A DNA stretch of 64,000 nucleotides from the NCBI RefSeq assembly GCF_022045235.1, contig NW_027266264.1, forward strand, positions 21,824,001 through 21,888,000, written 5' to 3'. Numbering within the stretch: the stretch's first letter is position 1; each line of letters starts with the position of its first letter. Made by a program: the position numbers and the translations under genes. The stretch is from Haliotis cracherodii (taxonomy: Eukaryota). The notes beneath the pieces were generated by a model. That model saw nothing but the letters and a program-made list of their open reading frames with translations. It had not been told where the DNA came from and did not search any database. This document shows positions 1,471-54,344 of this stretch, one piece after another.

Positions 1471-1682
1471 AGACGAGTTCTATGGATGAACGACTTCTTT
1501 ATTACAATTAGTGCGACGTTTCGGTGTAGATCCTAACATCTTTATCAAGCAATAGATCTATTGCTTGATAAAGGTGTTAGGATCTACACCGAAACGTCGC
1601 ACTAATTGTAATAAAGAAGTTGTTCATCCATAGAACTCGTCTTACTTCATCACTCCAACTTCTAAATGCCACTGAAAGAAGT
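1471..1682. mobile_element. Penelope-like retroelement terminal remnant: 182-bp palindrome with hammerhead-like core
   Basis: Inverted arms 1466-1556 and 1557-1647 (2 mismatches); 15-bp direct repeat aataactgtcaagta at 1456-1470 and 1683-1697; TTGATAA-A-GGTGT-loop-ACACC-GAAACGTC followed by AATAAA. Confidence 0.65.
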
Positions 1683-3109: not shown

Positions 3110-3665
3110 TACCATGGTGACCAGAATGTTTCTTCTTACAGCAGTAGAGCCAGCAAACCAAAAATTGTTGAATATGGCACCATGGCAACCAAAATATCAC
3201 TTCTTCCAGCAGTAGAGCTAGTAAGAAAAAAGTGTTGAATATGGTGATATCACTATGGCAACCAGAATATCTCTTCCTCCAGCAGTAGATCTAGTAAACC
3301 AAAACGTTTGAATATGGCACCCTAACCTTGGCAACCAAAATATCACTTCTTCCAGCAAACCAAAAAGTGTTGAATACGGCACCATGTCCATGGCAACCAG
3401 AATATGTCTTCTGCCAGCAGTAGAACTAGTAAACCCAAACGTTTTGAATATGGCACCCTAATCTTGGCAACCAGAATATCACTTCTTCCTGCAGTAGTGC
3501 CAGCAAACCAAAAGTTTTGAATATGGCACCGTAAACGTGGCAACCAGAATATCACTTCTTCCAGCAGTGGAGCCAGCAAACCAAAAAGTGTTTAATATTG
3601 GACCATAACCATTGTAAACGCTAACCAAAATGCTTCTCTTGCAGCAGTAAAGCCAGCAAGCCAAA
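3110..3665 (+). repeat. ~60-75 bp tandem repeat (~8 copies) comprising the intron 3' end and exon start
   Basis: Unit ggcaaccagaatatcacttcttccagcagtagagccagcaaaccaaaaagtgttgaatatggcacc; the last copy is the real acceptor. Confidence 0.9.
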
Positions 3666-3768
3666 GACTACTGTCACTGCCTCAGGTCTCTTCCTGGATG
3701 ATGAGGAGAAACAAGACGATCTGTTTGGTGCAGCAAGCAAGCCCACAGCCAAACCTACACAAGATAAG
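3645..3768 (+). CDS. WASHC2: WASHC2 exon (SKASKPKTTVTASGLFLDDEEKQDDLFGAASKPTAKPTQDK)
   Basis: CTAAC branch site and ttgcag/cag NAGNAG acceptor; donor AAG|gtacag; LF-acidic motifs. Confidence 0.85.
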
Positions 3769-6700
3769 GTACAGTGTTGTTCTTTTCACTGATAGTTTCA
3801 CATTAATGAAACATATCAGAACATGCAATTTGTGAAAACAACAAGAATAACTGTATAAAACGTATCCTATTCGTCACTAACGCCTTTCTGTGCTTATGCA
3901 ACTGAAGAAATAAGAGACCATCATCTGCTTGGATATCCCCACCATTTTAACATGTATTCGATACACTCCCAAATCAGTTGGTCCCAGGATATATATATTT
4001 ATAAGCCAATGACAAGAAATGTTGGTATTCATATGAACACACAATGCCATTTAGAAAAAGGTCAAATGTAACAAATGTTATATTTGGGATTGCACTTTCT
4101 GAGTAAAGTACAGATTCTCGTACTTTTTTGGGTTGAGTCCCATCCGGGATTCGAACCCACACTGCCAGAGTGAGGCACCAAATTGCCAGCACACAAAGTC
4201 AGCGATCTAACCCACTCAACCACCAAAGCTTCCACAAAAAGGAAAGTCCGACATCTGGTAGAGGTGCCTCACTCTGGCAGTGTGGGTTTGAATCCCTGAC
4301 AGGACTCAACCAAAAAAAGTACGAGAATCTGTACTTTACTCAGAAAGTGCTATTCCGGATATAACATTTGTTACGTTTGTATTCATAGATACTGAAAGTT
4401 GCACATTTTATATGGAAGAGAACAGAGTTATGTTGTCAGTATTACTTAACGATATTTATACTTAACACTGGGATCGTCAGGGACTAAAAATGCTATTCCA
4501 AGTTATTTCTTACAGTCAAACACCGGTAGGTGGAATCACTGGGGTATGAGCAGAGATGATATTGCGAAAATAATGATTGTACTTCGAATATATTTATATT
4601 TAATATAGTTATTGATTTGAACTGCTATTGTGTGTGTACAATACTGGTTACAAGTATGTGTTCTGTTCATTGCAAGGCTGACTGTTGTAGGTAGGTGGCA
4701 TGTTAACATTATTTGAATGCTATTGACCAGTAAGCAGTGATATGGCAAGAAGTCGAGATCCACTAAAGACATAGGATACGACCAGTAATATTTGTAGTAT
4801 TATCAAAACAAGTCCCAGATACATCTTTGCTGTGCTATTTGTTACAGAAGGGAGACAAAGCCAAGCCGAGGTCCAGCAGCCTGTTTGATGATGATTTAGA
4901 TGACGAAGAAGATATGTTCTCGTTCAAGTCAAAACCCAAAGACAGGTGAGTTTAATGGTATTCTTCATGTGAAACACATAACGTAATACATATTTTATCC
5001 ATTACAGCATTATGAAAGAGTCTCTGGCTATGGTTGCCTGTGTCAGACATTAATTTGATATCAGAAACAATCATGATCTCCGATTCACCTATGAGATGTT
5101 GCACATGTTGTATGAGATGTGTTGTAATCGTAGCAGTGGAGGCAAGAAGAAGCCTGTTGGTGGGGTGGCACTGTTTGGGGGTGCTGACATTCTGAAGAAG
5201 AAGACGGAAACCCCTGCAGAGGAGCCTGCCAAGGTGAGGACAGTGTTCAGGGTGCACATCTGTTTAAAAACACCTTGAATTTTGAGGTCTGTCTTGACAA
5301 GGTCATGGAACTTATAGTGTGCCATGTATGTTTCTTACCTATTCCCATCTGAATTAAATTACCAAAAAATAGCTTTTTAAGTTTTAAGAATCACTCTTTC
5401 TACCTGTAATAATCTTAATAGAAAACTGTTTGTATGTTTTCTATTTAGTGTCAGTATCAATAAAGTTAATTGTTTGTGTACTGGTGGATTTGAGAAGTGA
5501 AATGTTTGTGTACTGGTGGATTTGAGAAGTGAAATGTTTGTGTACTGGTGGAGTTGAGAAGTGAAATGTTTGTGTACTGGTGGAGTTGAAAAGTGAAATG
5601 TTTGTGTACTTGTGGAGTTGAGAAGTGAAATGTTTGTGTACTGGTGGAGTTGAGAAGTGAAATGTTTGTGTACTGGTGGAGTTGAGAAGTGAAATGTTTG
5701 TGTACTTGTGGAGTTGAGAAGTGAAATGTTTGTGTACTGGTGTAGTTGAGAAGTGAAATGTTTGTGTGCTTGTGGATTTGAGAAGTGAAATGTTTGTGTA
5801 CTTGTGGATTTGAGAAGTGAAATGTTTGTGTACTTGTGCCAGGCCACCCCGGAGGAAGAGAAGCCAGAGGTAAAACCCATACCCCGCAAGTCCACACTGT
5901 CGTTGTTTGATGAGGATGACGAGGATGCAGATTTGTTTGGTGCAGCACCAAAACCTAAACCAGCAGCCAGCACTGCCAAGAAAGAGGTACCATGGTTCTG
6001 TCCAGTTTCTTCTGAGACTTTTGGGGAGGATTGAGTAGGGGTATAGTGCAGGGCTCCAGGTCATCTGTGGAGCCATTGATTATTTTCGCACGCTATCATT
6101 CACATTGGGTTCTTTGGGTATTCAATATGTTTTTACTCCTGTGGGTCCAGTATTATTGGTATTCTTACACGAAGTAGTACCGTATTCGACGTAATAAGTG
6201 CCCCGCTCTAATAAGCACACACTGTGACATTTGCTAAGATATTGGCTAGTGAACAATTCCAATTTGCACCCCTTCCGATTGATCAATGTACACAAGACAT
6301 TTATTCCCGTATCATACGCACTCATGTGTTATATGCACCCTTAATTATGGGCAATTAAATTATGAAAAAATATATCTGTCGTACATAAATATTTCAGCAT
6401 AAATAACAATATTATCCTTCAACTCAGTTTTTTTCACCAAATTAATATTCTAATAAGAGCCCCCTATTTCTAATTTTGAGAGCGCCCTGGGTGCTTATTA
6501 CATTGAATACGTTATCCTTTTTGTTAAGTAATTCTGCTTAAGATACTCTTTCAGGGGGCTTCCAGTTTGTATCTGTATGTGTGCTGCCTGAAGTATGTCG
6601 CATGTTGCATCAACTCACAACAGTAATATACATGCCTAATTGACAATATTCCAGACGTAGTGCTATTTTTATGTATTATTCACTGCAGTAAGGTTCCTAT

Positions 6701-9700
6701 GTGTGTGATGCCTGCACTCCATCAGTAAATATAGATCTGTGAAGGTTTGCAAGTTGAAAAGGATACATTAGGTAATTAAGCAGAGGGATGGTATTTTATT
6801 TGTTTTTTTAATGTTTCTTGCATACTTGTACACACATAAATTAACTGGGTAATGGTGAATTATTCTGTATGTTTTATGCACATATACCTGAGCTCTTTGT
6901 AGCAAAGTTAAAATGTGACTGTAAAAATGAGGGAACTAGGGGTACGTGCATTATGGATGTAAAACATCAGAGCCAAGCATGCTTAGGGGTTTTCATGCCA
7001 GTAGCTGTGTCGCTCGGACCTGCAAAGATATTCGTCTTCCTAGGGAACAATACTTGTGAATCGGTGTGATAGTCAGATGTCTGATGTGGCTCTAAATATT
7101 AACTCACTCACTTTCAGTTATGGGGCCAGTTTGTAGCCTATTGCTTGAGTCTTTGTCTGGTGTGCGGAAGATCTGGGTCCCGTTATGTGAACTTTGTGAA
7201 GCTTGTCCTTGATGTTCTCTGTCATGATTTGCCTTGAATATTGCAAGTGCACATACTTACAATGAAGACACAGAGGTGAAATGAGAGAGGATGTCTAACT
7301 TAACCCAAAGCACAAATCTTGAGGGGAAGTGATGTCACCACACTGTTGGCCAATTTGTTGTACTTCTGAAACATTGTAGCATTGTTTAAATTTCTTTCTG
7401 CAGTATAGATGATATAGGCTGATTTAGTTGAAATAGAGAATAAACTTTTGTTTAACTGCTAAGAAAATATTTTGTATGCTATCCTACAGCAGAGCAAGCC
7501 CAAGGCTGGTGGCAAGAGCCTGTTTGAGGATGAGGATGTTCTGTTTGGTGGGGCCAGTGAGGAGGCACCAGGAGTGGACCTCTTCAGTAAACAGGGACCT
7601 CTGGGAGGCTCCGTGAGTAACAGTTACCAGGCACTGGGTTAAATCTAATCAGTTAGAGACTGGGTGGCTCGGTGAGTAACAATTAACAGGCACTGGGTTA
7701 AATCTAATCAGTTAGAGCCTGGGAGGCTCCGATAGTAACAATTAACAGGCACAGGGATAAATCTAATCAGTTAGAGACTGGGAGGCTTGGTGAGTAACAA
7801 TTAACAGGGACTGGGTTAAATCTAATCAGTTAGAGACTGGGAGGCTCCGTGAGTAACAATTAACAGTCACTTGGTTAAATCTAATCAGTTAGAGACTGGG
7901 AGGCTCCGTGAGTAACAATTAACAGGCACAGGGTTAAATCTAATCAGTTAGAGACTGGGAGGCTCCGTGAGTAACAATTAACAGGCACAGGGTTAAATCT
8001 AATCAGTTAGAGCCTGGGAGGCTCCGTGAGTAACAATTACCAGGGACTGGGTTAAATCTAATCAGTTAGAGACTGAGAGGCTGGTTGACTAACAATAAAC
8101 AGGCACTGGGTTAAATCTAATCAGTTAGAGACTGGGAGGCTCCGTGATTAACAATTAACAGGCACTGGGTTTAATCTAATCAGTTAGAGACTGGGAGGCT
8201 CAGTGAGTAACAATTAACAGGCACTGGGTTAAATCCAATCAGTTAGAGACTGGGAGGCTCAGTGAGTAACAATTAACAGGCACTGGGTTAAATCCAATCA
8301 GTTAGAGACTGGGAGGCTCAGTGAGTAACAATTAACAGGCACTGGGTTAAATCCAATCAGTTAGAGACTGGGAGGCTCAGTGACTAACAGTTAACAGGCA
8401 CTGGGTTAAATCTAATCAGTTAGAGACTGGGAGGCTCCGTGAGTAACAATTAACAGGCACAGGGTTAAACCTAATCAGTTAGAGACTGGGAGGCTCCGTG
8501 AGTAACAATTAACAGTCACTTGGTTAAATCTAATCAGTTAGAGACTGGGAGGCTCTGTGAGTAACAATTAACAGGCACTGGGTTAAATCTAATCTGTTAG
8601 AGACTGGGAGGCTCGGTGAGTTACAATTAACAGTCACTGGGTTAAATCCAATCAGTTAGAGACTGGGAGGCTCATTGAGTAACAATAAACAGGCACTGGG
8701 TTAAATCTAATCAGTTAGAGACTGGGAGGCTTGGTGAGTAACAATTAACAGGCACTGGGTTAAATCTAATCATTTAGAGACTGGGAGGCTCCGATAGTAA
8801 CAATTAACAGGACTGGGTTAAATCTAATCAGTTAGAGACTGGGAGGCTCCGTGAGTAACAATTAACAGGCACTGGGTTAAATCTAATCAGTTAGAGACTT
8901 GGAGGCTCCGTGAGTAACAATTAACAGGCACAGGGTTAAATCTAATCAGTTAGAGACTGGGAGGCTCAGTGAGTAACAATTAGCAGGCACTGGGTTGGAT
9001 CAATTCAGTAAGAGACCTCTGAGAGGCTCCGTGAGTGTCAATGAGCAGAGGGTTGGATCAGTTCAGTAAACAGGGACCTCAGGAAGGATCTGCAAGTATC
9101 ACTAAGCAGGCACTGGGTCTGATTGCCTCGGTAAACAGGGATCATTTGGAGGCTCAGAGAGTAACTCAGCATATCCTGAGCAGCTATACATGCAGTCCCC
9201 TTTAAAACACCTTTGGAAGTTAGTATTCCACCAAGTATTGTTTCCATGTGTACACAAAAGCTTCATTAGAATGAAATTGTTGACAGTGTGTATAATTAAA
9301 CACTGTGGATCCACGCAGTCATCCAGTTATCCAACTTTTCTGTGAATGCGGGCAGGGAGGCAAAACTATGATATAATAACTGAACAGCATTGCATATAAT
9401 AGCTGCTTTGGGTGATGTGTTGCAGTCTAAAGCTGAACCAGCTACAGCAGCCCCTTCTGCTAAGCCATCAGTGAAGGTTGGAGGGGCCACAACCAAGTCT
9501 AGCTCCACAGACCTGTTTGATGATGATGATGATGGCTTATTTGACACAAAGAAAGACAAGGTATGTTTACATTGCAAAAGTATGGACATGGCAAGGATCA
9601 ATCGTCATTGAATGTAAATTTGTGATACTGTATACCCTCATTCACATAGATAGATGTTTAACACTGCAGTCAGAAATAGTCCACCTATATCACGGTAGAC

Positions 9701-12700
9701 TGTTGAGAATCATGTTTCAACCAGACAAACCAGTGGTTGATATTATGAGCAAAATCCATGCCAACAGGGTACAACAATTGTAAGATGGTATGATAGACAA
9801 GGCAGGAACCTGCTCTAACTCTCCTGTGTTTCCCCCAGCCCAAGGAGAAGGTGGAGGTAGCTGGGGCCACTACAACAGAGTCATCTGATGCCGGACCACC
9901 AGCTGCTGAGGAGGTGGGTTGTACACCAGGGCAAAGGGACAAGGTGCCCAGGCTCTACACAGGCTTGTGGGTGGGGTGCCAGATTTTGGTAACTCGGTAA
10001 ACTGTGAAGAAATGTTTCTCTTAGAGATAGGAACAATATATTAAATCATTGATCTGTCTGTAAGCAGGTGCTGACATAATGATTTGGGAGAGGGACTACA
10101 AACTTGTCATTGCTTGTATGCAGTCCCTTTTATAGGAATGAAATGTGTCAAAACTAAAGCATCACTCAATACGACAGCCATATGTTCGCCAACACCAAAA
10201 AAGTTACATAGATGGCAGTGCCAGTAAGGCTTAAAAAAATAATGGAATTGGTTCTCTGGCAATGGCTTTTGAAATTATTGAGCGGGCAGGCATGCGATGG
10301 TAACATTATTTTTTGCTTGTTCAATCTAGTGTGTAACCAAATTTTGTTTACAATAATTTCGGGGAAATCATGTTTTTGTTCTTAAGTATTGTAGCATTTA
10401 ACTGCAGGCAGGTGGTATGTTCGAGACGCAGAATATTTAGAGATTTGGATGATATTTTTTTTTAAATGAAAATAAAAACGAAACAACCAGAAGACTTTAT
10501 GATGATGCGGTTGGTGTCTGAGAACCAAGACTATTAATTTTTTTAGCCTTATATTGATGAAATTCACTGACAGATTTTGTGTTCTAGATGAATAATAACT
10601 TGAAATTTGACTACAAGTTATGCATGAAAAATAATTGAAGTTTGCATGACCCAGGAGGCCAAGCCAGCAGCACCCCCAGCCGTCACCAAGCCCAGGAAAC
10701 CAGCAGGGGCAGTGTCCATGTTTGGAGGAATGGACCCTTCAGCTCTGCTCAAGAAGAAGAAGAAACCTGTGGAAGAGGAAGAAGACAAACCAGCAGAGCA
10801 AGAAAAGAAACCAGAGGAGAAGAAAAAAGGTATTCAGAATTATGTGCAAAAATGTGTTTAAGAAATTTGACATAGCACCCTCTGTGTAATTATTATTGTT
10901 GATATTTGTCTGTTGATAGTACAGTTACCATGCAATGTGGCAATGACCTTGCCTCGGTATCACTATTCCTAAAAGATTGCAATAAGGATGTATATCTTAC
11001 ACAGGGTGTAATCCTGTGTATTCAAAACCTGACTGTAATAAAATGAATGGGTTTGCGTGCCATTGATATTCTGCAGAATGATATTTTTGGGCATGGAATC
11101 CTCAATAACACTCTGAAATCACAAAACATGTGTTTTTCCCCTAAATGTGTACCCACCACATGGGATAACATGTTGCAATTGATATCTGGGACTGACAGTT
11201 TGTTATAGAGGTGAGGTGGGATTTTGTATGGAAACTAGATATTTTTTCAGCTGCAGCTCCAAAACCATCTATTGTTTAAATCTTTTCAAGCATTTTTGGG
11301 GACAATTTAGTATGTTTTTATAAAACCCCAGGCCCCATCCCCCTTGATATCATATGGTCGGACCCTTACCATCACGTTCTTTCCAACACTGTTGCAGCTG
11401 ACCCCCTGTTTGGCGATGCCGATGATGGCAAAGGTGGAGCTGACATCTTCACTGTGGTTGCCCCGAAGCCCAAGCCTCCTGCTGCAGCACCCAAGCCAGC
11501 AGCATCTCAAGATGAGGACAAGTCAGAAGAGGATTCAAAGGCCCAGCAGGTCTGTAGTTGCTATAAATGTAGAAAAATAAAGAAAAGAGCTACTAAGGCT
11601 TAAAAAAAAGGAAGAATTGGTTCCCAGGCAATGACTTTTGAAAATATAGTATGGGCGGGCTGTTGCTTTTTTTGTGTGTGTGTTTTGCTTGTTGAAACTA
11701 GTATGTAACCAAATAAACAGTTGTGTACCATCAACCTAGGAAATGACCTCTCTACATAGACAAGCATAGATTCCTATTGCTGCCATGACCATAACTCAAG
11801 ATGCGCAGTGTAGCAGTGCGCATGTAAAGGGAAGTAACTGTGTGCAATATTGGATCACATTGTTTTTAAGTATTAGGATTTTTTCATTATTTTGAAAATT
11901 GAAATAAAAACGAAATTTGTGGAAGACTTTGTGATGATTTGGGCTGTGCCTGAGAGCCAAGACTATTATTTTTTTAATCCTAATGAAGAAAAGGATAAAA
12001 CAAATGTTAACACCAGTGGATGTTAGCTTTCGGTGCAAGTATGAATTGTGTTTATTTTGAGTGAATATTTATTATAGCACCATATCCATCCTTTAATATA
12101 TGCTCATAATTAAAACAAGCTGTAACAAGAAGATACAGTAAGACACTGTAGATCCTGATGGTAGCATTCCAGGTGATTACAAACTGTCTGGATTAACAAA
12201 TCAGTGTGAGTGAGTTTGGTTTAACGCCGCTTTTAACAGTTTTTCAGTTATATTGCGGCGTGTCAGCTTAATGTGGGAGGAAAGCCCGAAGTGATGCAGG
12301 TCTCAGACGTTTTCTGCGTCTCAACAAGAGAGATGTTATCATTTATAACAAGAGAGATGTTATCAGTTATAACAGGAAAGAAGGTATCAGTTAGAAATAT
12401 AGGTCTGTGTCAGCTCTGTGTCGAGAAGTGTGTCTACCAGTAGCAGTGAGACAATATACACAATGTTAAAATGATGCCAGGTTAGACTGAGTGCAGTTTA
12501 CCACATTCCAATTACCATTGATTGTCGGTGGTTTCTCCGACCTAACTTGAGAGTGTTATAAATGACCTTCCAGGAGGCTCCCAAGCCCACCCGTCCTAAG
12601 CTGGCTGGTGCGGTGTCCATGTTCGGAGGGATGGACCCAGGAGGTTGGTCTGGTCAGAAGAAGATGATGCCGACCAGGCAGATCTCTGAGGGTAAGAGGA

Positions 12701-15700
12701 GGACATCTAGAGAAGTTCTAGAGAAGTTGAACTTAGTAATTAAGTTGCTCCAATAATTAAAATTCATTCAGGGCAGTCTTAGAAATTAAGATAAAATGCG
12801 CTCACTACTTCAGTAATCCAAGTGAGTTATCTCCCTTTCTTCCAGATAACGAAGTGCCACTGCCTCCAGATCTTCCTGACATCGACCAGGTGAGCTTCAG
12901 TCATGTTCCATGCTTCTGCTGAGTTTGTTTTAATTGTAGTTATTTCTGTTGCTGCTTTAAAAAAAGTATTTAGACAGCTTTCCATGCTTTCAGACGGGAG
13001 TCGACTCTAAAATACTGGCAGCAACATTTATTGATTAATTTTTTGGCATCAGGCTTTAGCTTAAAAACTAAATTTATAACAAGAAAGTCATTTGATGTTT
13101 AGCTTGAGGCTTGTTTTGCATGTGCAGTGATGTGATAGGAATTTGAGGAGAAGTTGTGTTTGAAGTGCTTTGCATATATAGTCAACAAATTAAAGGGACT
13201 CTTGTTACATTTTATACAAAGAGATAACTTATTACAGACATTTTAAGAAATACATTTAGACTGTCCCATACCAGTCACTTGAAGCTTCATGATTTAATGA
13301 CAAGATTTTTACTAAAATCTGAAACATCTATTTCCTAGTGTTCATGTTTAAAATTATACCAAATTTGCACCATATCAACCATATTTAATAGCTGAACCTG
13401 AAAGCAGGATTCGACCCAGACCAGTTGGCAGCCGAGCAAGTCTGATTCAAACGATTTAAACGTCCCTTTGATTCACATTTTATTGTGCATATCTCTCCAA
13501 CAATTTATAATCACATTAATTACCCAGAGATACTGTGAGATTCACAGATTGCACTATTGTCTGGACCTGGAATAGGCATCAGGACAATCAGTGTGGTCTA
13601 ACTCAGATATTGCAGTAAATTAGAATGACTTTCTGTATGCTGTGTTGTGGCATCTGCTTGTGGTTCACTGCTAGACTATTGCCATGCTGATACTGTTGGC
13701 TGCTTGGTAGCCTTGCTTAGTATCTGGTGTCACATTTGTCCCTCTGTCTGTAGCCTGCAGCCTCTAGTTCAGCTCCTGGTAAAAAACGTCCTGGAAAAAT
13801 AGGGAAACTTCAGGTAGGTGTTCCTTTGATGTGAGTTTTAGTTCCGGTCTGTACAACCTTTAGTTGATATAGGATTCAGTGGACTCTAAGCCAGGCCTAC
13901 CAAGAAAACCAGCTGAAAGCAAGCAAATTATGGAATCTGTACACACTTTAAATAGAAATAGCCACACAACTTACAAGAAAGACACAATCCAAATAAAGAG
14001 TGTGTCGTAATGATTAAAACCTGACATATTTTCAATGAAACCATGCGATTGTGCAGATTGCAACAAACTGAGTGTGCATGCACTCGGTGCGTTGCAGTCT
14101 CCAATGGAAATGTGGCAGAGTTTAATCATTATGATGCACACTTTATGGGGATTGTGTCTTGTGTGGCCATTTCTATTTCATACAGATTCCATAGTTTGGT
14201 TGCTCTCTGCTGATTTTCTTCGGTAGGCCTGTAAGCTAAGAAACTGTTCTGTGTTGCTTTAAATACCATTCCTGCCTACATTAACTGTGTTGGATAGAGA
14301 CATTGTGATCATATGCATATATTTATGACTGAATATTAGTAATGATGATTATATGGACTGGTTGATCAATACTCTGACTATTGACAGCACATCACAGGTC
14401 AATACACACCATAGAAGCCTTTTCCATGCATATTGGGGTAAAGAAACAAGTCATAGCTAAATTTTCTTCCAACTGCTGTACATCTTGTGAGTGTGAAGGG
14501 TGTATTAATGAATGATGTACAAGGTGTAGTTTGTTTTCATTTCCTTCAATAGACACAGGGCACAGTGATTATACAATTGTAATATTCATATTTATGATTG
14601 ATATGTGGAGGGTGCATTACAGAGAGGATGTATGCGCAGTGTGTATTTGTGAATGACATTTGCTGGATATATTTATCAGAATATATGTTCTGGGTGTGTT
14701 TATGAATTCTGTATGAAGTTTATATTTTTGAATGATGTGTGCAGTATGTATTGATATGATATATGCAGGGTGTATATATGAGATGATCTGTATAGCTCTT
14801 TGTGTTTTTGTATGTCTATAACAGATGAGGTGTGTGTCATGTATATGTTTGGTATGGCAGGGAGGTCTCGGTATCAACCCCGCTGCGTTACTTCCGGGGG
14901 CAGCGCCGCCTCGGGCAGCAGAGAATCAACCAGCTGTGGGCTTCAGCGAACCACCGGAGACTACAGTGCTACCTAGTGCTTCAAAGGTAATAGAACCCTG
15001 GGGGATAGAACCGGTCCTCAGCTTACAATTGTATGCCATAACAGGCAACTAAATGGGATCAAAGGGTCAGGCTCTGTGACTTGCCTGATCGTCATGGTGC
15101 TCTGCTCATAATATCAATCATTGGTTTTTGTGGTCCAGACTTTATTATTTACAGGCAGCTGTTATAAAGTTGGAATTTTGCTGACTGTGTCATGAAACAA
15201 CAAACAAATCAGTCTTCATGTGAAGCCAAATTGGTAGTTTGACATTGTGATTTAATGTGTCAGTTCATAATATTGACAGTCGTATTAACTTATATGATAT
15301 CCTTTTTTTTGCCTTAAATAGGTTAAGGATTCAATACCTGTTTTTATTCTTTAGGTTTAGGATAAATAAGTCCCTGAGGATGTTAAAATTTGATGAACGG
15401 TATTGGGTGCATTATCTTTTCAACTAGACATATTTATAAATGGTGCAAGGGGAGGTGGGGTAGCCTCATGGTTAAAGCGTTGGCTTGTCATGCTGAAAGC
15501 CCTTGTTCATTTCCCCACATGGGTACAATGTGTTATTAGATTGTATGAATTAAGCTGTGTCAAACTTCTTCTTTAGGACCGAGTGAGGATTATCACCAGA
15601 CGCAGGCCCCAGAGTCGAAAGGCTCGGCACTCTGCCGCCCTCTCAGGTGTTTTTGATGACTTCTCCCCAACTATGTCACCAACATCCCCAACAGAACCCA

Positions 15701-18700
15701 ACCCCATTGCTCAAATTGATGGCAAGGATTCCAGCCCTCCAAAAACTGAGACTCGATCAGATTTATTTGGAAATGATGACATTCTTGGAGACTCCTCCAA
15801 ATCAGCTCCAGTGTTAACAGAGGACAAATCTGGTGATAAGGATTTGTTTAGTGATGGACTATTTACCAAGAGTGGTAGCACAAAGCCATCAGACTCTGTA
15901 GATGGACTCTTTGAGTCTTCAGGGAAAAGTGAGAAGAAGGACCCTGTAGCTGCTGCTGATCTGTTTCCCTCCAAGTCTTCATCAGCGAGTGGACAGGCAA
16001 AGAAGGTGGCACCAGTTGATAATGAGGAAGACTTGTTCGCGTCAACATCTAAGTTAGCAGATAAAGAATCCAAGACTGATAGTAGTAGCAAGAAGGAAGA
16101 GAAGAAAGCCAAGGTTGTGGATGACGACGACATCTTTGCTGATGCCAGTATTAACAAGAAAAAAGGTAGATTAGGTTCACATGTTTAATGTAATGATTGT
16201 TGTCACTTAGCTGTGCATAGGGCACATCTAGGAAGTTTCATCACTCTCAATCACAGATTTATTTATCTTTTTAGAAATGTGGGTATAGATTTCATGACTC
16301 TGTCTCGTCTTATATTCGTCATTAGGGCCATGATTTGTCCCTAATCCAGTCAACCATGTCAGGACCCTGTGGGGATTCCGGGTTGGAGTAGGTCCACAGA
16401 AAACCTATGGTGGTTGTAAGAGGCGATCAAATGGATCAGGTGTCAGATTTGGTGACTTTGTTGATTGCATGTCATCAACGCTGTTCTTAATATCAATCAC
16501 TTGATTTTCTGGTCCAGACAGTTATTTTAAAGGCTGCTGTCATATAGCTGGAATATTGCTGAGTGTGACGTTAAACAACAAACAACCATGTCAGGATAAG
16601 TTGGGTGTAGTTTCAAATCCCAGATTGTTTCATGATCACTGATGTGTCATACCCATGGGTTTCACCAAAGTGGTAAGCATCTTACTGCAACTCACTCACT
16701 ACTTCACCTACACACTGTTTGACATGAGGTTAATCTTCTCCTTTAAGAATCAAAGAAACCTCCTGCTGGGCCCAGTGATGACATATTTGGAGACAGTTCA
16801 GCATCCAAGAAACCCTCCCAGAAACCGGCTCCGGGGGTGAGTGGAGCTTGGCCAACATATTCCAAGTGACCACTGTCTTTAATAACTACTGACAAATAAT
16901 TACCTGACAGGCATTCTCTGCACAGTGGCTTAAACACCAAAAGGTTTTTAAGGGAAATTTAGAAATTGTGTTTGTTGGTAGACCTGCTGGTGTCTTACCT
17001 CTTTTCTACCCTTGGTATCCAATTTTCCATTTAATTTATCCCTAGAATACTTTAATAAATGGATGTTGAAAAAGTACATTCTACCCATGTGTGTTTAATG
17101 GATTGAATCATGAGATGGTATGTGGATTATTCTAAAGAACAAATGTTATTTGCCTAACAACTAATGTGTTTGTGTGTTATGCTAGAATGAGGAAGACATC
17201 TTTGCCACATCAGCACCAGCAGAGAAGAGGAGGCCGAAAAAAGCCAGTGTGAAGGACGAGGCCCTATTCAAGGATGAGACCGACATCTTTGCTGACATTC
17301 CCGCCTCCAAGCCCAAGGAGCCCAAGAAGAAGAAGAAGACGACCGAGAAGAAGAGCATATTCAAGGATGATATAGGTGAGAAGGATATCAGTCCTCTGAA
17401 ACCCATCGGTCCTCATTGAACAGTATCCAAACACTCCTCAATAATAGCTCATACCTCCGTAACACATCAATCTTTACCAACCTATCAGTCCTCAGTAGCC
17501 CATCAGTCTTCAGTAACCCATCAGTCCTTGGTAACCCATCTGTCTTCAGTAACAGCTCATACCTCGGTAACCCATCAGTCTTCAGTAACCCAACAGTCCT
17601 TGGTAACCCATCAGTCTTCGGGAACCCATCAGTCCTTGGTAACCGATCAGTCTTCAGTAACCCATCAGTCTTCAGTAGCCCATCAGTCTTCAGTAACCCA
17701 TCAGTCTTCAGTAACCCATCAGTCTTCTGTAACCCATCAGTCCTCAGTAACCCATCAGTCTTCAGTAACCCATCAGTCCTTGGTAACCCATCAGTCTTCA
17801 GTAACCCATCAGTCCTTGGTAACCCATCAGTCTTCAGTAACCCATCAGTCCTCAGTAGCCCATCAGTCTTCAGTAACCCATCAGTCCTTGGTAACCCATC
17901 AGTCTTCAGTAACAGCTCATACCTCGGTAACCCATCAGTCCTTGGTAACCCATCAGTCTTCAGTAACCCATCAGTCCTCAGTAGCCCATCAGTCTTCAGT
18001 AACCCATCAGTCTTCAGTAACCCATCAGTCCTTGGTAACCCATCAGTCTTCAGTAACCCATCAGTCCTTGGTAACCCATCAGTCTTCAGTAACCCATCAG
18101 TCTTCAGTAACCCATCAGTCTTCAGTAACCCATCAGTCTTCTGTAACCCATCAGTCCTCAGTAACCCATCAGTCTTCAGTAACCCATCAGTCTTCAGTAA
18201 CCCATCAGTCCTTGGTAACCCATCAGTCTTCAGTAACCCATCAGTCTTCAGTAACCCATCAGTCCTTGGTAACCCATCAGTCTTCAGTAACCCATCAGTC
18301 CTCAGTAGCCCATCAGTCTTCAGTAACCCATCAGTCTTCAGTAACCCATCAGTCCTTGGTAACCCATCAGTCTTCAGTAACAGCTCATACCTCGGTAACC
18401 CATCAGTCTTCAGTAACAGCTCATACCTCGGTAACCTACCAGTCTTCAGTAACAGCTCATACCTCTGTAACCCATCAGTCTTCAGTAACCCATTAGTCTT
18501 CAGTAACCCATCAGTCTTCAGTAACCCATCAGTCCTCAGTAACCCATCAGTCTTCAGTAACCCATCAGTCCTTGGTAACCCATCAGTCTTCAGTAACCCA
18601 TCAGTCTTCAGTAACCCATCAGTCCTTCGTAACCCATCAGTCTTCAGTAACCCATCAGTCCTCAGTAGCCCATCAGTCTTCAGTAACCCATCAGTCCTTG

Positions 18701-19926
18701 GTAACCCAATCAGTCTTCAGTAACAGCTCATACCTCGGTAACCCATCAGTCTTCAGTAACAGCTCATACCTCGGTAACCTATCAGTCTTCATTAACAGCT
18801 CATACCTCTGTAACCCATCAGTCTTTGGTAACCCATCAGTCTTGTTAACCCATCATACTTCAGTAACCCATCAGTCTTCAGTAACAGCTGATACCTCTGT
18901 AACCCATCAGTCTTTGGTAACCCATCAGTCTTCAGTAACCCATCAGTCTTCAGTAACCCATCAATCCTTGGTAACCCATCAGTCTTCAGTAACAGCTCAT
19001 ACCTCGGTAACCCATCAGTCTTCAGTAACCCAACAGTCCTTGGTAACCCATCAGTCTTCGGGAACCCATCAGTCCTTGGTAACCGATCAGTCTTCAGTAA
19101 CCCATCAGTCTTCAGTAGCCCATCAGTCTTCAGTAACCCATCAGTCTTCAGTAACCCATCAGTCCTTGGTAACCCATCAGTCTTCAGTAACAGCTCATAC
19201 CTCGGTAACCCATCAGTCTTCAGTAACCCATCAGTCCTCAGTAGCCCATCAGTCCTTGGTAACCCATCAGTCTTCAGTAACCCATCAGTCCTTGGTAACC
19301 TATCAGTCTTCAGTAACAGCTCATACCTCGGTAACCCATCAGTCTTCAGTAACCCATCAGTCCTTGGTAACCCATCAGTCTTCAGTAACCCATCAGTCCT
19401 CAGTAGCCCATCAGTCTTCAGTAACCCATCAGTCTTCAGTAACCCATCAGTCCTTGGTAACCCATCAGTCTTCAGTAACAGCTCATACCTCGGTAACCCA
19501 TCAGTCTTCAGTAACCCATCAGTCCTTGTTAAACCATCAGTCTTTGGTAACCCATCAGTCTTGTTAACCCATCATACTTCAGTAACCCATCAGTCTTCAG
19601 TAACAGCTGATACCTCTGTAACCCATCAGTCTTCAGTAACCCATCAGTCTTCAGTAACCCATCAGTCCTTGGTAACCTATCAATCCTCAGTATCTGTCAG
19701 CCCATAGTAACCTATCAGTCTTCAATAACCCATCAGTCATTAGTCCTTAATAACACATCAGTTCTCGGCAACTGCTCTCCTTCCTGTTTCAGATGACATC
19801 TTTGCAGACTCTTCCCCAGTGTCGACCAAGTCCAAGAAGGACACCAAGAAAAAGTCAAAAGATACAGGAAAGTCCAGTGCTGATGATGTTGACATATTTG
19901 AAGACCCCCTTGGGGGAGCCAAGTGA
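3645..19926 (+). CDS. WASHC2: WASH complex subunit 2 (FAM21), 3' part: 17 exons, ~824 aa, 5' end lies upstream of the window. join(3645..3768,4848..4945,5134..5233,5843..5986,7490..7612,9426..9560,9839..9913,10655..10829,11398..11549,12574..12691,12846..12889,13754..13813,14861..14986,15577..16165,16748..16836,17186..17375,19793..19926)
   Basis: All introns are GT..AG with consistent phases; the spliced length is 2476 nt (1 nt + 825 codons including the stop). About 20 L/I-F-acidic motifs (LFDDDLDDEEDMF, LFDEDDEDADLF, LFEDEDVLF, LFDDDDDGLF, IFKDDIDDIFAD). KIGKLQ-GGLGINPAALLP, CPI-like VLPSASKDRVRIITRRRPQSRKAR and C-terminal DIFEDPL are all FAM21 hallmarks. Confidence 0.93.
4068..4374. mobile_element. 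Head-to-head inverted pair of a tRNA-headed SINE-like element
   Basis: Arms 4068-4179 and 4263-4374 are reverse complements; the minus-strand copy has A-box TGGTTGAGTGG and B-box GGTTCGAATCCC. Confidence 0.75.
4848..4945 (+). CDS. WASHC2: WASHC2 exon (KGDKAKPRSSSLFDDDLDDEEDMFSFKSKPKD)
   Basis: ttacag acceptor, AG|gtgagt donor, phase 0-2. Confidence 0.9.
5134..5233 (+). CDS. WASHC2: WASHC2 exon (SGGKKKPVGGVALFGGADILKKKTETPAEEPAK)
   Basis: cgtag/cag acceptor, AAG|gtgagg donor, phase 2-0. Confidence 0.88.
5474..5838 (+). repeat. 32-33 bp minisatellite (~11 copies) running into the acceptor at 5842
   Basis: Unit tttgtgtactggtggagttgagaagtgaaatg. Confidence 0.95.
5843..5986 (+). CDS. WASHC2: WASHC2 exon (ATPEEEKPEV...SLFDEDDEDADLFGAAPKPKPAASTAKKE)
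   Basis: gtgccag acceptor, GAG|gtacca donor, phase 0-0. Confidence 0.9.
6180..6512. mobile_element. pogo/Tigger-like MITE
   Basis: TA|ccgtattc...gaatacg ends, with subterminal taataag(t/c)gccc motifs at both ends. Confidence 0.55.
7490..7612 (+). CDS. WASHC2: WASHC2 exon (QSKPKAGGKSLFEDEDVLFGGASEEAPGVDLFSKQGPLGGS)
   Basis: cctacag acceptor, TCC|gtgagt donor, phase 0-0. Confidence 0.9.
7563..9175 (+). repeat. 59-bp minisatellite (~24 clean plus 2-3 degenerate copies) containing the exon 3' end and 5' splice site
   Basis: Unit aggcactgggttaaatctaatcagttagagactgggaggctccGTGAGTaacaattaac; the first unit overlaps exon 7490-7612. Confidence 0.95.
9426..9560 (+). CDS. WASHC2: WASHC2 exon (SKAEPATAAP...TDLFDDDDDGLFDTKKDK)
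   Basis: ttgcag acceptor, AAG|gtatgt donor. Confidence 0.9.
9839..9913 (+). CDS. WASHC2: WASHC2 exon (PKEKVEVAGATTTESSDAGPPAAEE)
   Basis: ctaac branch site plus strong pyrimidine tract tttcccccag; GAG|gtgggt donor; symmetric 75 nt, so potentially skippable. Confidence 0.8.
10226..10551. mobile_element. MITE family X, copy 1
   Basis: taaggcttaaaaaaa...tttttttagcctta TIRs; homologous to 11593-11983. Confidence 0.7.
10655..10829 (+). CDS. WASHC2: WASHC2 exon (EAKPAAPP...KPAGAVSMFGGMDPSALLKKKKK...)
   Basis: acccag acceptor, G|gtattc donor, phase 0-1. Confidence 0.88.
11398..11549 (+). CDS. WASHC2: WASHC2 exon (ADPLFGDADDGKGGADIFTVV...KAQQ)
   Basis: gttgcag acceptor, CAG|gtctgt donor, phase 1-0. 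Confidence 0.88.
11593..11983. mobile_element. MITE family X, copy 2
   Basis: Shared blocks gaattggttc..ggcaatg.ctttt and tgaaa.taaaaacgaaa..gaagacttt.tgatga with copy 1. Confidence 0.7.
12574..12691 (+). CDS. WASHC2: WASHC2 exon (EAPKPTRPKLAGAVSMFGGMDPGGWSGQKKMMPTRQISE)
   Basis: ttccag acceptor, G|gtaaga donor, phase 0-1. Confidence 0.85.
12846..12889 (+). CDS. WASHC2: WASHC2 exon (DNEVPLPPDLPDIDQ)
   Basis: ctttcttccag acceptor, CAG|gtgagc donor, phase 1-0 restores the frame. Confidence 0.82.
13190..13470. mobile_element. Possible Kolobok-type MITE
   Basis: ttaaagggac...gtcccttt termini. Confidence 0.35.
13754..13813 (+). CDS. WASHC2: WASHC2 exon (PAASSSAPGKKRPGKIGKLQ)
   Basis: tctgtag acceptor, CAG|gtaggt donor; KIGKLQ precedes the INPAALLP motif as in FAM21. 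Confidence 0.87.
14861..14986 (+). CDS. WASHC2: WASHC2 exon (GGLGINPAALLPGAAPP...ETTVLPSASK)
   Basis: ggcag acceptor, AAG|gtaata donor; conserved INPAALLP. Confidence 0.92.
14995..15208 (+). mobile_element. SINE family C copy, starting 8 nt into the intron
   Basis: Homologous to 16365-16582 (tggtccagac...ggaat(a/t)ttgctga...aaacaacaaacaa). Confidence 0.7.
15449..15533 (+). mobile_element. SINE family A, 5' half (CpG-decayed)
   Basis: gggg.ggtggggtagcct..tggttaaagcgtt...ttccccacatgggtacaatgtg. Confidence 0.75.
15577..16165 (+). CDS. WASHC2: WASHC2 large exon (DRVRIITRRRPQSRKARH...DDDDIFADASINKKK)
   Basis: cttctttag acceptor, G|gtagat donor; matches ORF 15583..16188; second half of the CPI motif. 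Confidence 0.93.
16365..16582 (+). mobile_element. SINE family C, full copy with target-site duplication
   Basis: 14-bp TSD caaccatgtcagga at 16351-16364 and 16583-16596; gtaagaggcga motif; (aaac)n tail. Confidence 0.8.
16748..16836 (+). CDS. WASHC2: WASHC2 exon (ESKKPPAGPSDDIFGDSSASKKPSQKPAPG)
   Basis: ctcctttaag acceptor, GGG|gtgagt donor, phase 1-0. Confidence 0.85.
17186..17375 (+). CDS. WASHC2: WASHC2 penultimate exon (NEEDIFATS...LFKDETDIFAD...SIFKDDI)
   Basis: gctag acceptor, G|gtgaga donor, phase 0-1. Confidence 0.9.
17390..19770 (+). repeat. 18-bp minisatellite (~130 copies) filling the last WASHC2 intron
   Basis: Unit cagtaacccatcagtctt, with variants cttggtaacc and aacagctcatacctcgg. 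Confidence 0.97.
19793..19926 (+). CDS. WASHC2: WASHC2 last coding exon (DDIFADSS...DDVDIFEDPLGGAK*)
   Basis: cctgtttcag acceptor; FAM21-type IF(D/E)DPL terminus; TGA at 19924-19926. Confidence 0.92.
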
Positions 19927-21024
19927 TGGCATCAACTTAGGATACATTGTTATATTATGTTATCATTTGTATAGTAAGATTATTTTGTACAGATTAGGTT
20001 GTTTTTATGCGGGTCAGGCTGGAAAGTACAAGAAGAAAATGCTAAAACAATATTTTACAAACACATGTACAGAGATATTTCATTGTTATGAGACTGACCC
20101 CTTCCCCTAAAAAAGAATGATCAGTTGAAATGCTAATGTGTATTAAATGTTTATAGGAACCATGATTATTCTGTCCCTTACCAGTCTCAATGAAGGCCAT
20201 GCTGCACACTGAAATACTCTGCATTGAAGTATAAATGCCCATACACATTTGTCAGCAGAATATCCTTTGATATCCAAAATGCCAAGGTGACCTGGTGCAC
20301 TTTTTTCAACTGAACTATCTCTACAGAAGATGAGTTTCATGCTGGTCGATTGTAGTGTGTTTCTTATTTCTAAATTAATTGACAACATTTGTAGTTGATG
20401 GAAGAACTTCTGTCATCTTGATTTAGATTTTTGTAAGAACTAAATTACATAAGGAAGAGCATTTATGTATCTCAACTTTATATGAAGACTTCAACCTTTT
20501 GTAGTATATACTTACTTCTTCATACCCTGTTACACTTTGAAATGTTGTGTTCCTCATAATAAAGAAGTTGACATACATAAATTCTTCTTCATTATGTGTA
20601 TCACTTCGAAAGGCCATTCAAAGACTTGTGAGTTACATGTACATGTATTTAGTTTCTGTTGTGTTTTCCATCAAATCATGCATGTGAAATTGATCAGAGT
20701 GGATGAAGGTTTAAGTCTTTCTGACAGGCAGTAAATGGTGTCATTTACAGATGTCTATGCTTCATGTTACTGCTAATTCTTACAATCCAATCATTAGTTA
20801 TGGTTTCCATGTTGTGTATCTGCTAGATGAACATTTGATGGGGTGAATGCATCTTCTGAAACACTAGAGGAAATGATTGGCCAAAGACAGCAGGGCAGGA
20901 AGTGTATCCTTGTTGTTTTTTGTTTAATGCCACACTCAACAGTATTCCACCGACATGACAACAGTCTGTAAATAATTGAGTGTGGACCAGACAGTCCAAT
21001 GGTTGATATCATGAACATCATATC

Positions 21025-21570
21025 AACTGGAACAGGATATGTAAGCACTTGGACAGGAAGTGTATCCTGTGGGGTAGGAGATATGTCAACTGGGACAGGA
21101 GATGTATCCACTGGGGCAGGAGATATGTCCACTGGGACAGGAGATGTATCCACTTGGACAGGAGATATGTCCACTGGGACAGGAAATGTATCCACTGGGA
21201 CTGGAGGTGTATCCACTGGGACACAAGATATACACCTACTGGGACAGGAGGTGTATCCACTGGGACAGGAGATATGTCCACTGGGACAGGAGGTGTATCC
21301 ACTGGGACAGGAGATATGTCCATTTGGACTGGAGATATGTCCACTGGGACAGGAGGTGTATCCACTGGGACAGGAGATATGTCCACTGGGACAGGAGGTG
21401 TATCCACTGGGACAGGAGATATGTCCACTGGGACAGGAGGTGTATCCACTGGGACAGGAGATATGTCCATTTGGACTGGAGATATGTCCACTGGGACAGG
21501 AGGTGTATCCACTGGGACAGGAGATATGTCCACTGGGACAGGAGGTGTATCCACTGGGACAGGAGGTGTG
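21025..21570 (+). repeat. 21-bp minisatellite with alternating variants (42-bp dimer), probably in the 3' UTR
   Basis: ggacaggagatatgtccactg alternating with ggacaggaggtgtatccactg. Confidence 0.95.
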
Positions 21571-37934: not shown

Positions 37935-38745
37935 TATCCCTGAAGGATGGACGTGCTCTCTCCGCGGGAGATCCCAGTAAGAGGTACTTCTCGCATGGCG
38001 GGAGATGCCTGAAGGATGTACTTCTCGCATGGCAGGAGATGCCTGAAGGATGGACTTCTCGCATGATGGGAGATCCCTGTATGATGTACTTCTCGCATGC
38101 CGGGGGATAACTGTAGGATAGACTTCTCGCATTGCGGGATATCCCTGTAGGATGTACTTCTCGCATGATGGGAGATCCCTGTAGGATGTACTTCTCGCAT
38201 GGCAGGAGATCCCTGTTTAATGTACTTCTCGCATGGGGGGGATCCCTGTAGGATGTACTGCTCGCATGGCGGGAGATCCCTGTAGGATGTACTTCTCGCA
38301 TGATGGGAGATCCCTGTAGGATGTATTTCTCGCATGACGGAAGATCCCTGTAGGATGTACTGCTCGCATGATGGGAGATCCCTGTAGGATGTACTGCTCG
38401 CATGACGTAAGATCCCTGTAGGATGTACTGCTCGCATGACGGAAGATCCCTGTAGGATGTACTTCTCGCATGATGGGAGATCCCTGTAGGATGTACTTCT
38501 CGCATGATGGGAGATCCCTGTAGGATGTACTTCTCGCATGGCGGGAGATCCCTGTAGGATGTACTTCTCGCATGGCGGGAGATCCGTGTAGGATGTACTG
38601 CTCGCATGACGTAAGATCCCTGTAGGATGTACTGCTCGCATGACGGAAGATCAGTGTAGGATGTACTTCTCGCATGACGGGAGATCCCTGTAGGATGGAC
38701 TTCTCGGGTGGCGGGAGATCCCTGTAGGGTGGACTTCTGTAGGAT
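37935..38745 (+). repeat. 34-bp minisatellite (~24 copies)
   Basis: Unit gggagatccctgtaggatgtacttctcgcatgat. Confidence 0.95.
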
Positions 38746-39299: not shown

Positions 39300-39995
39300 C
39301 CATACAGAGCCTCTAGCTGCCACTACGTCGACTACATCAGCGCGTTTAGACACTAGCAGCGTCATATTGACACGAGCAGGTCTAAATCTACTACATCAGC
39401 TCCACATAGACACTAGCAGTCTCTATATCGACTACATCAGCGCCATGTTGACACTAGCAGTCTCTATATCGACTACATCAGCGCCATGTTGACACTAACA
39501 GTCTCTATATCGACTACATCAGCGCATATAGACACTAGCAGCACTATAAGGACTACATCAGCGCCATGTTGACACTAGCAGTCTCTATATCGACTACATC
39601 AGCGCCATGTTGACACTAACAGTCTCTATATCGACTACATCAGCGCATATAGACACTAGCAGCACTATATGGACTACATCAGCGCCATATTGACACTAGC
39701 AGCTCCGTGTCGACTACATTAGCGCCATATTGACACTAGCAGCACTATATGGACTACATCAGCGCCATATTGACACTAGCAGCTCTATGTCGACTACATC
39801 AGCGCCATATTGACACTCGCGGCTCTATGTCGACTACATCAGCGCCATATTGACACTCGCGGCTCTATGTCGACTACATCAGCGCCATATTGACACTCAC
39901 AGTCCTATGTCGACTATATCAGCGCCATATAGAGATACTAACAGCCTCTATATTTACTACTTCAGCGCTATACAGCAGCCACTATGTCGACTACC
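39300..39995 (+). repeat. 41-bp minisatellite (~16 copies, degenerate edges)
   Basis: Unit gacactagcagtctctatatcgactacatcagcgccatgtt. Confidence 0.95.
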
Positions 39996-45920: not shown

Positions 45921-45980
45921 ATGGCGGAGGAATATATCGGAGAACAGGACCTGGCACAACTAATGATGGCTCCTCTGAAG
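45921..45980 (+). CDS. Candidate first coding exon of an unidentified downstream gene (MAEEYIGEQDLAQLMMAPLK)
   Basis: Kozak accATGG, AAG|gtagag donor followed by an AT-rich intron-like stretch; unique CpG-containing upstream region with TGACGTCA at 45742. No recognisable homology. Confidence 0.3.
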
Positions 45981-49330: not shown

Positions 49331-50109
49331 GTTCGACGCTCAGATGACCAGAGCCGGACATTTGATCACCTGAAGCAGAAATGGGAGATATATGATCGCA
49401 AAGACAATAAAGGTTAAAGGAGTCTTGATTTCGCCCACGTGTGTTCATCTAACATTTAAAATGATCTCCTTCACTAATATCCCCAGCAGATACAGATGTT
49501 ATGGGATTAATTTTCATTGATTTCCTGAAAAGAGAAATGTTCATGACATAGCTGTGTTGTATGAAAAATGTTATACTAACATTTCGACTCACATATACAT
49601 ATGGCGGTGACGTTTACTGTTCACTTATATCCCATTCTTATTAGCCGGAATGTCAGCATAGGTGGTTATAATGCTATGCAGTGACAATAGTCGTATTGGA
49701 GACGTGCATGGTTTACTTTGTTACGAAATTCGCATGGTTTTTTTATAATGATGTTCTTGTTTTCTTAAACTGATCAATAATTTATGTACATATTTTACCG
49801 TTCTGCTATCAAGTCATCTTTTGATATATGTCTACCTTTCAATTCATTAACTATCAAATACCTTAAAAAGACATGACTTCTGCTGCCTCACCGATATTGA
49901 TCGACGTACATGGTTATTTTGTCACAGAAATATGGAATGAAAAAACAATGACGTTCTCTTTGAGCAGAGAATTTGATTTATAGTGTGACCAATTATTGTG
50001 AGGTTTGTGTACCAGGATACACGATGTTTACACAAACTGTGCATGAGATTATCAAGTTTACACTGTTCAAAAACCGCACATGAAGTTGTGAAGTTTAGAC
50101 TGTACATAC

Positions 50110-54075: not shown

Positions 54076-54344
54076 CCGAAACACAAATTTATGAAATGTC
54101 AAGACATACATACACGAAGGCACATGTCAACCTATACTTCAATCAGACGTTGCCCATTTACAATATGGATGTCCGGGTTTGGACAATTGACACACATCAT
54201 CTGGTGATTCCGTTAACTAAACAACATGTACGAAGTAGCTCCCGTAACAATAGAGCATAATGTTTATTATTTACCTATGAAAGCCTCGATACAAATATAT
54301 ATTAGATATACCGACGACCCTAGTATAATGAAAGTATTCATGAG

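What the first reader, a model, noticed from the sequence alone, without database searches (positions are those of the whole stretch)
3110..19792. Splice-junction-anchored minisatellites in four introns of one gene
Seen: four unrelated arrays each start or end within ~25 nt of a WASHC2 splice site, and two contain the splice site itself (3110-3665 acceptor; 5474-5838 acceptor tract; 7563-9175 donor; 17390-19770 spanning almost the whole intron). No large array within this gene sits free mid-intron. Inference: there may be a lineage-wide tendency for repeats to nucleate at, or be bounded by, exon edges. The selected exon copy would act as a fixed anchor while the intronic copies homogenise, creating banks of decoy splice sites, a route to intron growth and possibly new exon boundaries. 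I cannot say whether this is already described for this lineage.
Basis: partly seen in the sequence, partly recalled or inferred. Interest (0 to 1): 0.72.

Follow-up and report, generated by a model that had tools for sequence, protein, structure and literature searches.

The report
Splice-junction "mirage" repeats in WASHC2 introns
Four tandem repeats lie at the edges of introns in one animal gene, two of them built from copies of the gene's own exon-intron border, which is a repeat type already known from lancelets as a "mirage"; across about 800 other introns of this genome, repeats sit at exon edges only slightly more often than chance, so this is likely a by-product of a repeat-rich genome with short introns.

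Summary
All four arrays are real and lie where stated, in a WASHC2/FAM21-like gene, but they are three different things. A (73-mer) and C (59-mer) are tandem copies of an exon-intron junction, the amphioxus "mirage" type (PMC3087553). B (32-mer) copies the pyrimidine tract and stops 2 nt before the AG. D (18-mer) simply fills a short intron. RNA-type contigs splice at the authentic sites at B and C.

I tested the lineage-wide claim on 823 dynein heavy-chain introns of the same genome. 62 of 179 arrays end within 25 nt of a splice site or cross it, against 43.5 expected (1.4-fold, seen in two intron sets). Masking interspersed repeats raises the expectation to 50-53 (1.2-fold, P 0.02-0.06). Junction-crossing arrays occur at chance rate (23 against 23-28). 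Only arrays stopping just inside the intron stay in excess (39 against 25). Arrays double intron length. No new exon boundary was seen.

Two larger arrays upstream in the same gene sit mid-intron. This scan has noted mirages before, in this genome and others. Verdict: new member of a known kind; the anchoring effect is weak.

The parts
3111..3666 (+). Array A: 73-74-nt unit holding the intron 3' end, acceptor AG and about 22 nt of exon; 7 intronic copies before the authentic junction (acceptor mirage)
   Evidence: TRF; copies in register and site scores
3645..3768 (+). WASHC2-like exon after array A (acceptor 3644|3645; an in-frame alternative AG 3 nt on)
5463..5838 (+). Array B: 32-mer made from the last 36 to 5 nt of the intron (pyrimidine-tract region); unit lacks the acceptor
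   Evidence: 1 acceptor-like site at or above the 5th percentile (4.2 bits) against 10.1 bits for the real one
5843..5986 (+). Exon after array B
   Evidence: Contigs of 4 of 4 RNA-type runs begin their piece at 5841-5843 and join 5986 to 7490
7490..7612 (+). Exon whose donor is the first unit of array C
   Evidence: Pieces end at 7612 (X12, X13) or 7611 (X15, X17); 210 nt to the next anchored exon fits exons 9426-9560 and 9839-9913
7577..9175 (+). Array C: 59-mer core 7601-9036 with 12 nt exon plus donor; three distal degenerate 61-65-nt copies keep about 36 nt of exon (donor mirage)
   Evidence: 18 of 24 listed intronic copies keep GTGAGT
14861..16165 (+). Two exons (14861-14986, 15577-16165) with colinear, sub-threshold matches to Pfam CAP-ZIP_m (WASH complex subunit FAM21/WASHC2)
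   Evidence: E 0.0024 and 0.0017, profile positions 19-46 and 89-115; joint shown by contigs
17386..19770 (+). Array D: 18-mer (TRF core 17459-19738) filling the last intron 17376-19792; no exon sequence in the unit; locus-specific
   Evidence: a 31-nt probe has 12 exact matches in G000, all inside this array
19793..19926 (+). Last coding exon up to the stop codon
   Evidence: Frame; acceptor 12.1 bits; the join itself lay outside the stretches laid with contigs

Best explanation
These are locally born minisatellites, two of them copies of an exon-intron junction ('mirages'), that are likely tolerated passengers in a genome with frequent short tandem duplication and short introns. Shown: the units of A and C are copies of their own junctions; inner copies are homogenised while edge copies keep more exon; assembled transcripts use the authentic sites at B and C; every scored decoy acceptor of A, and any read-through past C's first donor, meets a stop codon; junction-crossing arrays are about as common as random duplication predicts. 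Inferred: a 15-100-nt tandem duplication lands anywhere in a roughly 600-nt intron and is amplified by unequal exchange or slippage. When it spans a junction, the copy in the exon is held by selection. The spliceosome likely takes the exon-proximal site (the first donor, as in human F7), and nonsense-mediated decay would clear rare mis-splicing. A residual 1.6-fold excess of arrays ending just inside the intron probably reflects slower turnover of sequence next to splice signals.
For: Unit anatomy and decoy scores. RNA-type contigs. Control sample of 823 introns and 179 arrays: crossing 23 against 23.3 and 28.1; near-site 62 against 43.5, 50.1 and 52.8. Collapsed intron median 605 nt against 656 nt for array-free introns. 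Only 14 of 179 arrays, and 2 of the 62 near-site ones, match another sampled locus; D's probe is locus-specific. 22 of 179 arrays fill at least 80% of their intron, as D does. Interspersed repeats make up 5-7% of intron sequence within 50 nt of a site but 30-40% at 100-800 nt. The same anatomy and normal splicing are reported for amphioxus (PMC3087553) and human F7 (PMC1557585 abstract).
Against: A near-site excess remains and was seen in both intron sets: 41 against 31.5 (P=0.02) and 21 against 12.0 (P=0.0008). Arrays abutting a site stay in excess after masking (39 against 24.8, P=0.002), so pure chance is not the whole account, and the turnover explanation is untested. My null lets a unit overlap the exon with no cost; if selection removes many such arrays, a chance-level count hides a positive mutational bias. 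The control is one gene family, with junctions from my own homology aligner. Contigs show only majority isoforms, from individuals whose array alleles are unknown.
Confidence: 0.72

Rival explanations
1. Exon edges or splice signals actively nucleate or bound tandem duplication, for example through microhomology in pyrimidine tracts or repair near spliced junctions.
For: Near-site excess of 1.42-fold pooled; purely intronic arrays 32 of 149 against 16.4, or 18.9 after masking; abutting excess in both sets; array A lies at the end of a 10-kb intron (P=0.02).
Against: Crossing arrays are not enriched. The total excess falls to 1.17-fold, P=0.055, with looser masking. 117 of 179 arrays are away from sites. 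Near-site arrays are no longer than others (518 against 459 nt, P=0.55).
Confidence: 0.2
2. The decoy banks are functional: they tune splicing efficiency or feed transcripts to decay in a copy-number-dependent way.
For: Decoys are intact: 13 of 16 donor-crossing and 6 of 7 acceptor-crossing arrays keep a strong site in at least half their copies. Human tandem repeats can affect splicing in cis (PMC10078293, passages).
Against: Contigs show only authentic joins at B and C. Units are locus-specific. Amphioxus mirages are reported not to disturb splicing.
Confidence: 0.05
3. Selection treats the two ends differently: donor copies are tolerated but acceptor copies are purged, so acceptor-side arrays stop short of the AG, as B does.
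For: First intron set: crossing 12 donor and 4 acceptor; abutting 4 donor and 15 acceptor; Fisher P=0.002, with bins chosen after seeing the data.
Against: The replicate, with bins fixed beforehand (note), gave 4 and 3 crossing, 5 and 3 abutting, Fisher P=1.0. Array A and a 71-mer upstream in this gene are intact acceptor mirages.
Confidence: 0.12

Closest known systems
Amphioxus 'mirage' minisatellites: Adh3, globins BflGb6 and BflGb9, troponin C, PGBD5 (PMC3087553, passages of section 16 and legends; PMC3902484, one passage; the original Adh3 paper PMC117041 was not held)
   Same: Tandem units spanning an exon-intron boundary at either end, carrying AG or GT signals; concerted evolution with the cluster edges left out; normal splicing; proposed as a route to intron gain. 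Units of 10-160 bp there, 59-74 bp here.
   Different: A different animal (1.18-Gb assembly; called abalone in earlier scan notes, not tested here). More copies than the globin cases (25 or more against 3-6). Only A and C qualify. The passages I read give no count against a null model.
Human F7 IVS7 37-bp VNTR (PMC1557585, abstract only)
   Same: First unit spans the donor; identical downstream pseudo-sites stay silent; the most upstream site is chosen.
   Different: Mechanism tested with 50 constructs there; here only assembled contigs. At C the used donor scores 1.0 bit by a simple matrix and four decoys score 6.3-6.5.
Ordinary intronic minisatellites, e.g. the 27-bp VNTR in intron 3 of abalone TSSK1-like (PMC6905558, passages)
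   Same: Locus-specific, length-inflating intronic arrays, like B and D.
   Different: The passages read report no splice-site content or position effect.

Membership tests
Mirage minisatellite | Repeat unit spans an authentic exon-intron boundary | tested here: met
   Arrays A and C; C's donor shown by contigs; A's acceptor by frame only
Mirage minisatellite | Repeat unit spans an authentic boundary (arrays B and D) | tested here: not met
   B stops 2 nt before the AG; D holds no exon sequence. They are plain intronic minisatellites.
Mirage minisatellite | Many copies keep AG or GT signals | tested here: met
   A: 13 acceptor-like sites at or above the 5th percentile of 650 real acceptors; C: 18 of 24 listed copies keep GTGAGT
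Mirage minisatellite | Regular splicing at the authentic site | tested here: met
   C: 4 of 4 runs end the exon at the first donor; exact 210-nt offset in X12, X13, X15 (hand arithmetic, for X13). Not tested at A. Minor isoforms cannot be seen in contigs.
Mirage minisatellite | Concerted evolution of inner copies, edges excluded | tested here: met
   C core is a uniform 59-mer scoring 6-11.5 against the last 36 exon bases; the three distal copies score 16-22
Mirage minisatellite | Allelic or somatic length instability | not tested
   One copy of the locus in G000; no DNA runs were laid
WASHC2/FAM21 (host gene) | CAP-ZIP_m region and acidic Leu-Phe repeat tail | tested here: inconclusive
   Two exons hit PF15255 colinearly but below the cut-off; repeats visible; two homologue searches and two PDB searches gave no relative. 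The name also rests on recalled N-terminal motifs.

The most novel reading that the evidence does not exclude
In repeat-rich invertebrate genomes splice signals act as retaining walls: minisatellites ending within about 25 nt inside the intron are kept or made about 1.6 times more often than chance, while about 1 junction in 70 carries a bank of intact decoy sites that the spliceosome skips even when they score higher than the real site. The genome would then offer hundreds to thousands of natural tests of splice-site choice by position.
Probability: 0.3. Interest if true: 0.5.

Novelty: new member of a known kind. Interest (0 to 1): 0.25.

Why it matters
The kind is known, and this scan has logged it many times. 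In the control sample 163 of 823 introns carry a minisatellite, arrays double intron length, and 23 of 1646 junctions (1.4%) are mirages, about as many as random duplication predicts. That argues for tolerance, not targeting. It also warns that a plain within-intron shuffle overstates the effect (62 against 24.3), because it cannot produce crossing arrays and ignores interspersed repeats. Array C, where a low-scoring first donor is used ahead of higher-scoring copies, is a ready minigene test of whether F7-type first-site selection holds outside mammals.

Tried and rejected
Donor/acceptor asymmetry: strong in the first set, not reproduced in the replicate; not claimed.

Abutting arrays as decayed mirages: only 4 of 39 match their own exon edge, against 7 of 252 distant ends and 23 of 23 crossing ends; mostly rejected.

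Mobile satellite families: 14 of 179 arrays shared within the sample; D's probe is unique to its locus; rejected for most.

Intron gain from a junction duplication: none of 179 arrays is near both ends, and 19 of 23 crossing arrays have a period not divisible by 3; no case seen.

Amphioxus as the source: assembly of 1.18 Gb, larger than I recall for lancelets.

Homologue searches with two WASHC2 exons found nothing, nor did PDB sequence searches, so there is no protein-level check of junction A and no congener comparison.

No run was on record as RNA; the five runs laid (X12-X15, X17) are guessed RNA and show spliced joins.

Rows dropped: 255 of 865 first-set and 46 of 259 new introns failed the junction-confidence filter; five poorly matched loci gave few introns, and without them the first set is 32 against 26.0 (P=0.08).

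Literature: seven searches listed no genome-wide count of junction-spanning minisatellites in an invertebrate; the library lacks most subscription papers, and no supplements were read.

An Atlas look-up of a 59-aa frame at 49238 gave no hit.

Full report
Setting. The window is G000:C1:21824001-21888000 in a 1.18-Gb, 80-contig animal assembly. Earlier scan notes call this genome abalone; I did not test that. The host gene is WASHC2/FAM21-like: two consecutive exons match Pfam CAP-ZIP_m colinearly but below its cut-off, and acidic Leu-Phe repeats run through the exons. No homologue was retrieved.

Exon map. Seventeen exons from 3645 to the stop at 19926 were read from frames and splice signals (off-by-one slips were corrected by hand). 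Contigs of five guessed-RNA runs were laid on two array-free stretches. They show the acceptor 5842|5843 and the end of the next exon at 7612 in 2 runs and 7611 in 2 runs. They also show GT..AG joints at 14986, 16165 and 16836. Record offsets leave exactly 210 nt between 7612 and 10655 in X12, X13 and X15, the sum of the two exons between, so the first donor of array C is joined directly to 9426.

The four arrays. A (73-mer) is seven intronic copies of the acceptor plus about 22 nt of exon, ending in the real junction. Thirteen decoy acceptors score 5.5-9.3 bits against 7.7 for the real one, and each would add a stop codon. C (59-mer) starts 12 nt inside the exon. 18 of 24 listed intronic copies keep GTGAGT, four score above the used donor by a simple position matrix (6.3-6.5 against 1.0 bits; such a matrix ignores compensation between positions), and read-through meets a stop after nine codons. 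Its three most distal copies are 61-65 nt long and keep about 36 nt of exon, so the founding unit was probably longer and the core was homogenised later. B copies the pyrimidine-tract region and stops 2 nt before the AG. D has no exon sequence and fills an intron that would be about 50-150 nt without it, so its ends must be near splice sites. A 31-nt probe from D occurs only in this array (12 of 12 matches).

Is the gene special? Upstream of the window the same gene has a 71-mer acceptor mirage, a 52-mer starting 21 nt after a donor, and two arrays of 468 and 311 bp that lie mid-intron relative to script-predicted exons. That makes 5 of 8 arrays at a site by TRF ends, not significantly above the control rate (P=0.10).

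Control sample. I located 18 dynein heavy-chain-family loci on 12 contigs, fetched about 1.6 Mb around them, took 150 homologous proteins and mapped junctions with a spliced profile aligner written here. 610 of 865 introns passed a flank-score filter, then 213 of 259 further ones as a replicate with bins fixed beforehand. Arrays were TRF hits with period 10 or more, 3 or more copies and 100 bp or more: 130 and 49. The null collapses each array and places it uniformly in its own intron, letting one unit overlap the exon.

Results. Ends within 25 nt of a site or across it: 41 against 31.5 (P=0.02), 21 against 12.0 (P=0.0008), pooled 62 of 179 against 43.5 (P=0.0005). Crossing by 6 nt or more: 23 against 23.3. 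Interspersed repeats are scarce near splice sites and cover 28-32% of intron sequence; masking them raises the expectation to 50.1 (P=0.017) or 52.8 (P=0.055). In the second version crossing is 23 against 28.1 and abutting (-5 to 25 nt) is 39 against 24.8 (P=0.002; 0.03 and 0.007 in the two sets). The repeat library came only from the sample, so the residual may shrink further. A donor/acceptor asymmetry in the first set (Fisher P=0.002) did not recur (P=1.0). Arrays are in 163 of 823 introns, make up 14% of first-set intron bases and double median intron length. None is near both ends of its intron.

Mechanism. Shown: local origin, junction content of A and C, edge-excluding homogenisation, authentic splicing at B and C, chance-level frequency of crossing arrays. 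Inferred: frequent small tandem duplication amplified by unequal exchange; selection holding the exon copy; exon-proximal site choice with decay of errors; slower turnover beside splice signals as the cause of the abutting excess. Mutational bias at edges is not excluded.

What is known. Amphioxus mirages have the same anatomy, normal splicing, edge exclusion and a proposed role in intron gain (PMC3087553, passages; PMC3902484, one passage). Human F7 IVS7 shows that the most upstream of identical donors is chosen (PMC1557585, abstract). Seven searches listed no genome-wide invertebrate count. The scan index holds 58 findings with these words in at least 9 genomes, three of them mirage-type notes in this genome; these are unchecked notes.

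Verdict. Observation partly confirmed; interpretation partly supported. Two new mirages and two ordinary intronic minisatellites, with a weak (1.2-1.4-fold) tendency of arrays to lie at exon edges. Limits: one control gene family, homology-derived junctions, majority-isoform contigs, no congener DNA.

Noticed in passing
G000:C23:72312142-72313785 (minus strand; L132-L133): A dynein heavy-chain exon in the first AAA domain occurs three times: a partial copy just upstream of the aligned exon (acceptor duplication) and a diverged, full-length, open copy with AG and GT about 1.4 kb downstream. Candidate mutually exclusive exon pair.
   Followed up: partly
window 13754-13813: A 60-nt WASHC2 exon is present in contigs of X12 and X15 but absent in X13, by record offsets: likely alternative splicing.
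   Followed up: partly
window 46679-49238: 63-mer, 41 copies, each with an acceptor-like tract; the last copy opens a 59-codon frame (49238-49414), and a possible first exon with ATG and donor lies at 45921-45980. Possible further acceptor mirage; no real Pfam match or Atlas hit.
   Followed up: partly
L002 (G000:C1:21812815-21813042 is in L003; 21816426-21817261 in L002): Two more junction-side arrays in the upstream part of the same gene: a 71-mer acceptor mirage and a 52-mer starting 21 nt after a donor.
   Followed up: yes
window 7601-7650: Run X15 (a different organism label) has extra contig depth starting near 7601 and running off the laid stretch (table 2), which hints that it carries the array C unit too.
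   Followed up: no
window 21021-21569: 21-mer array about 1.1 kb after the stop codon, in or just past the 3' untranslated region; the X13 contig's length would end it near the array's start.
   Followed up: no
window 37965-38738, 39357-39972, 50107-54076: Three further large minisatellites (34-, 40- and 29/58-mers) with no exon recognised nearby.
   Followed up: no
window 1499-1620: A long near-perfect inverted repeat centred near 1559, read by eye; likely a foldback or MITE remnant.
   Followed up: no
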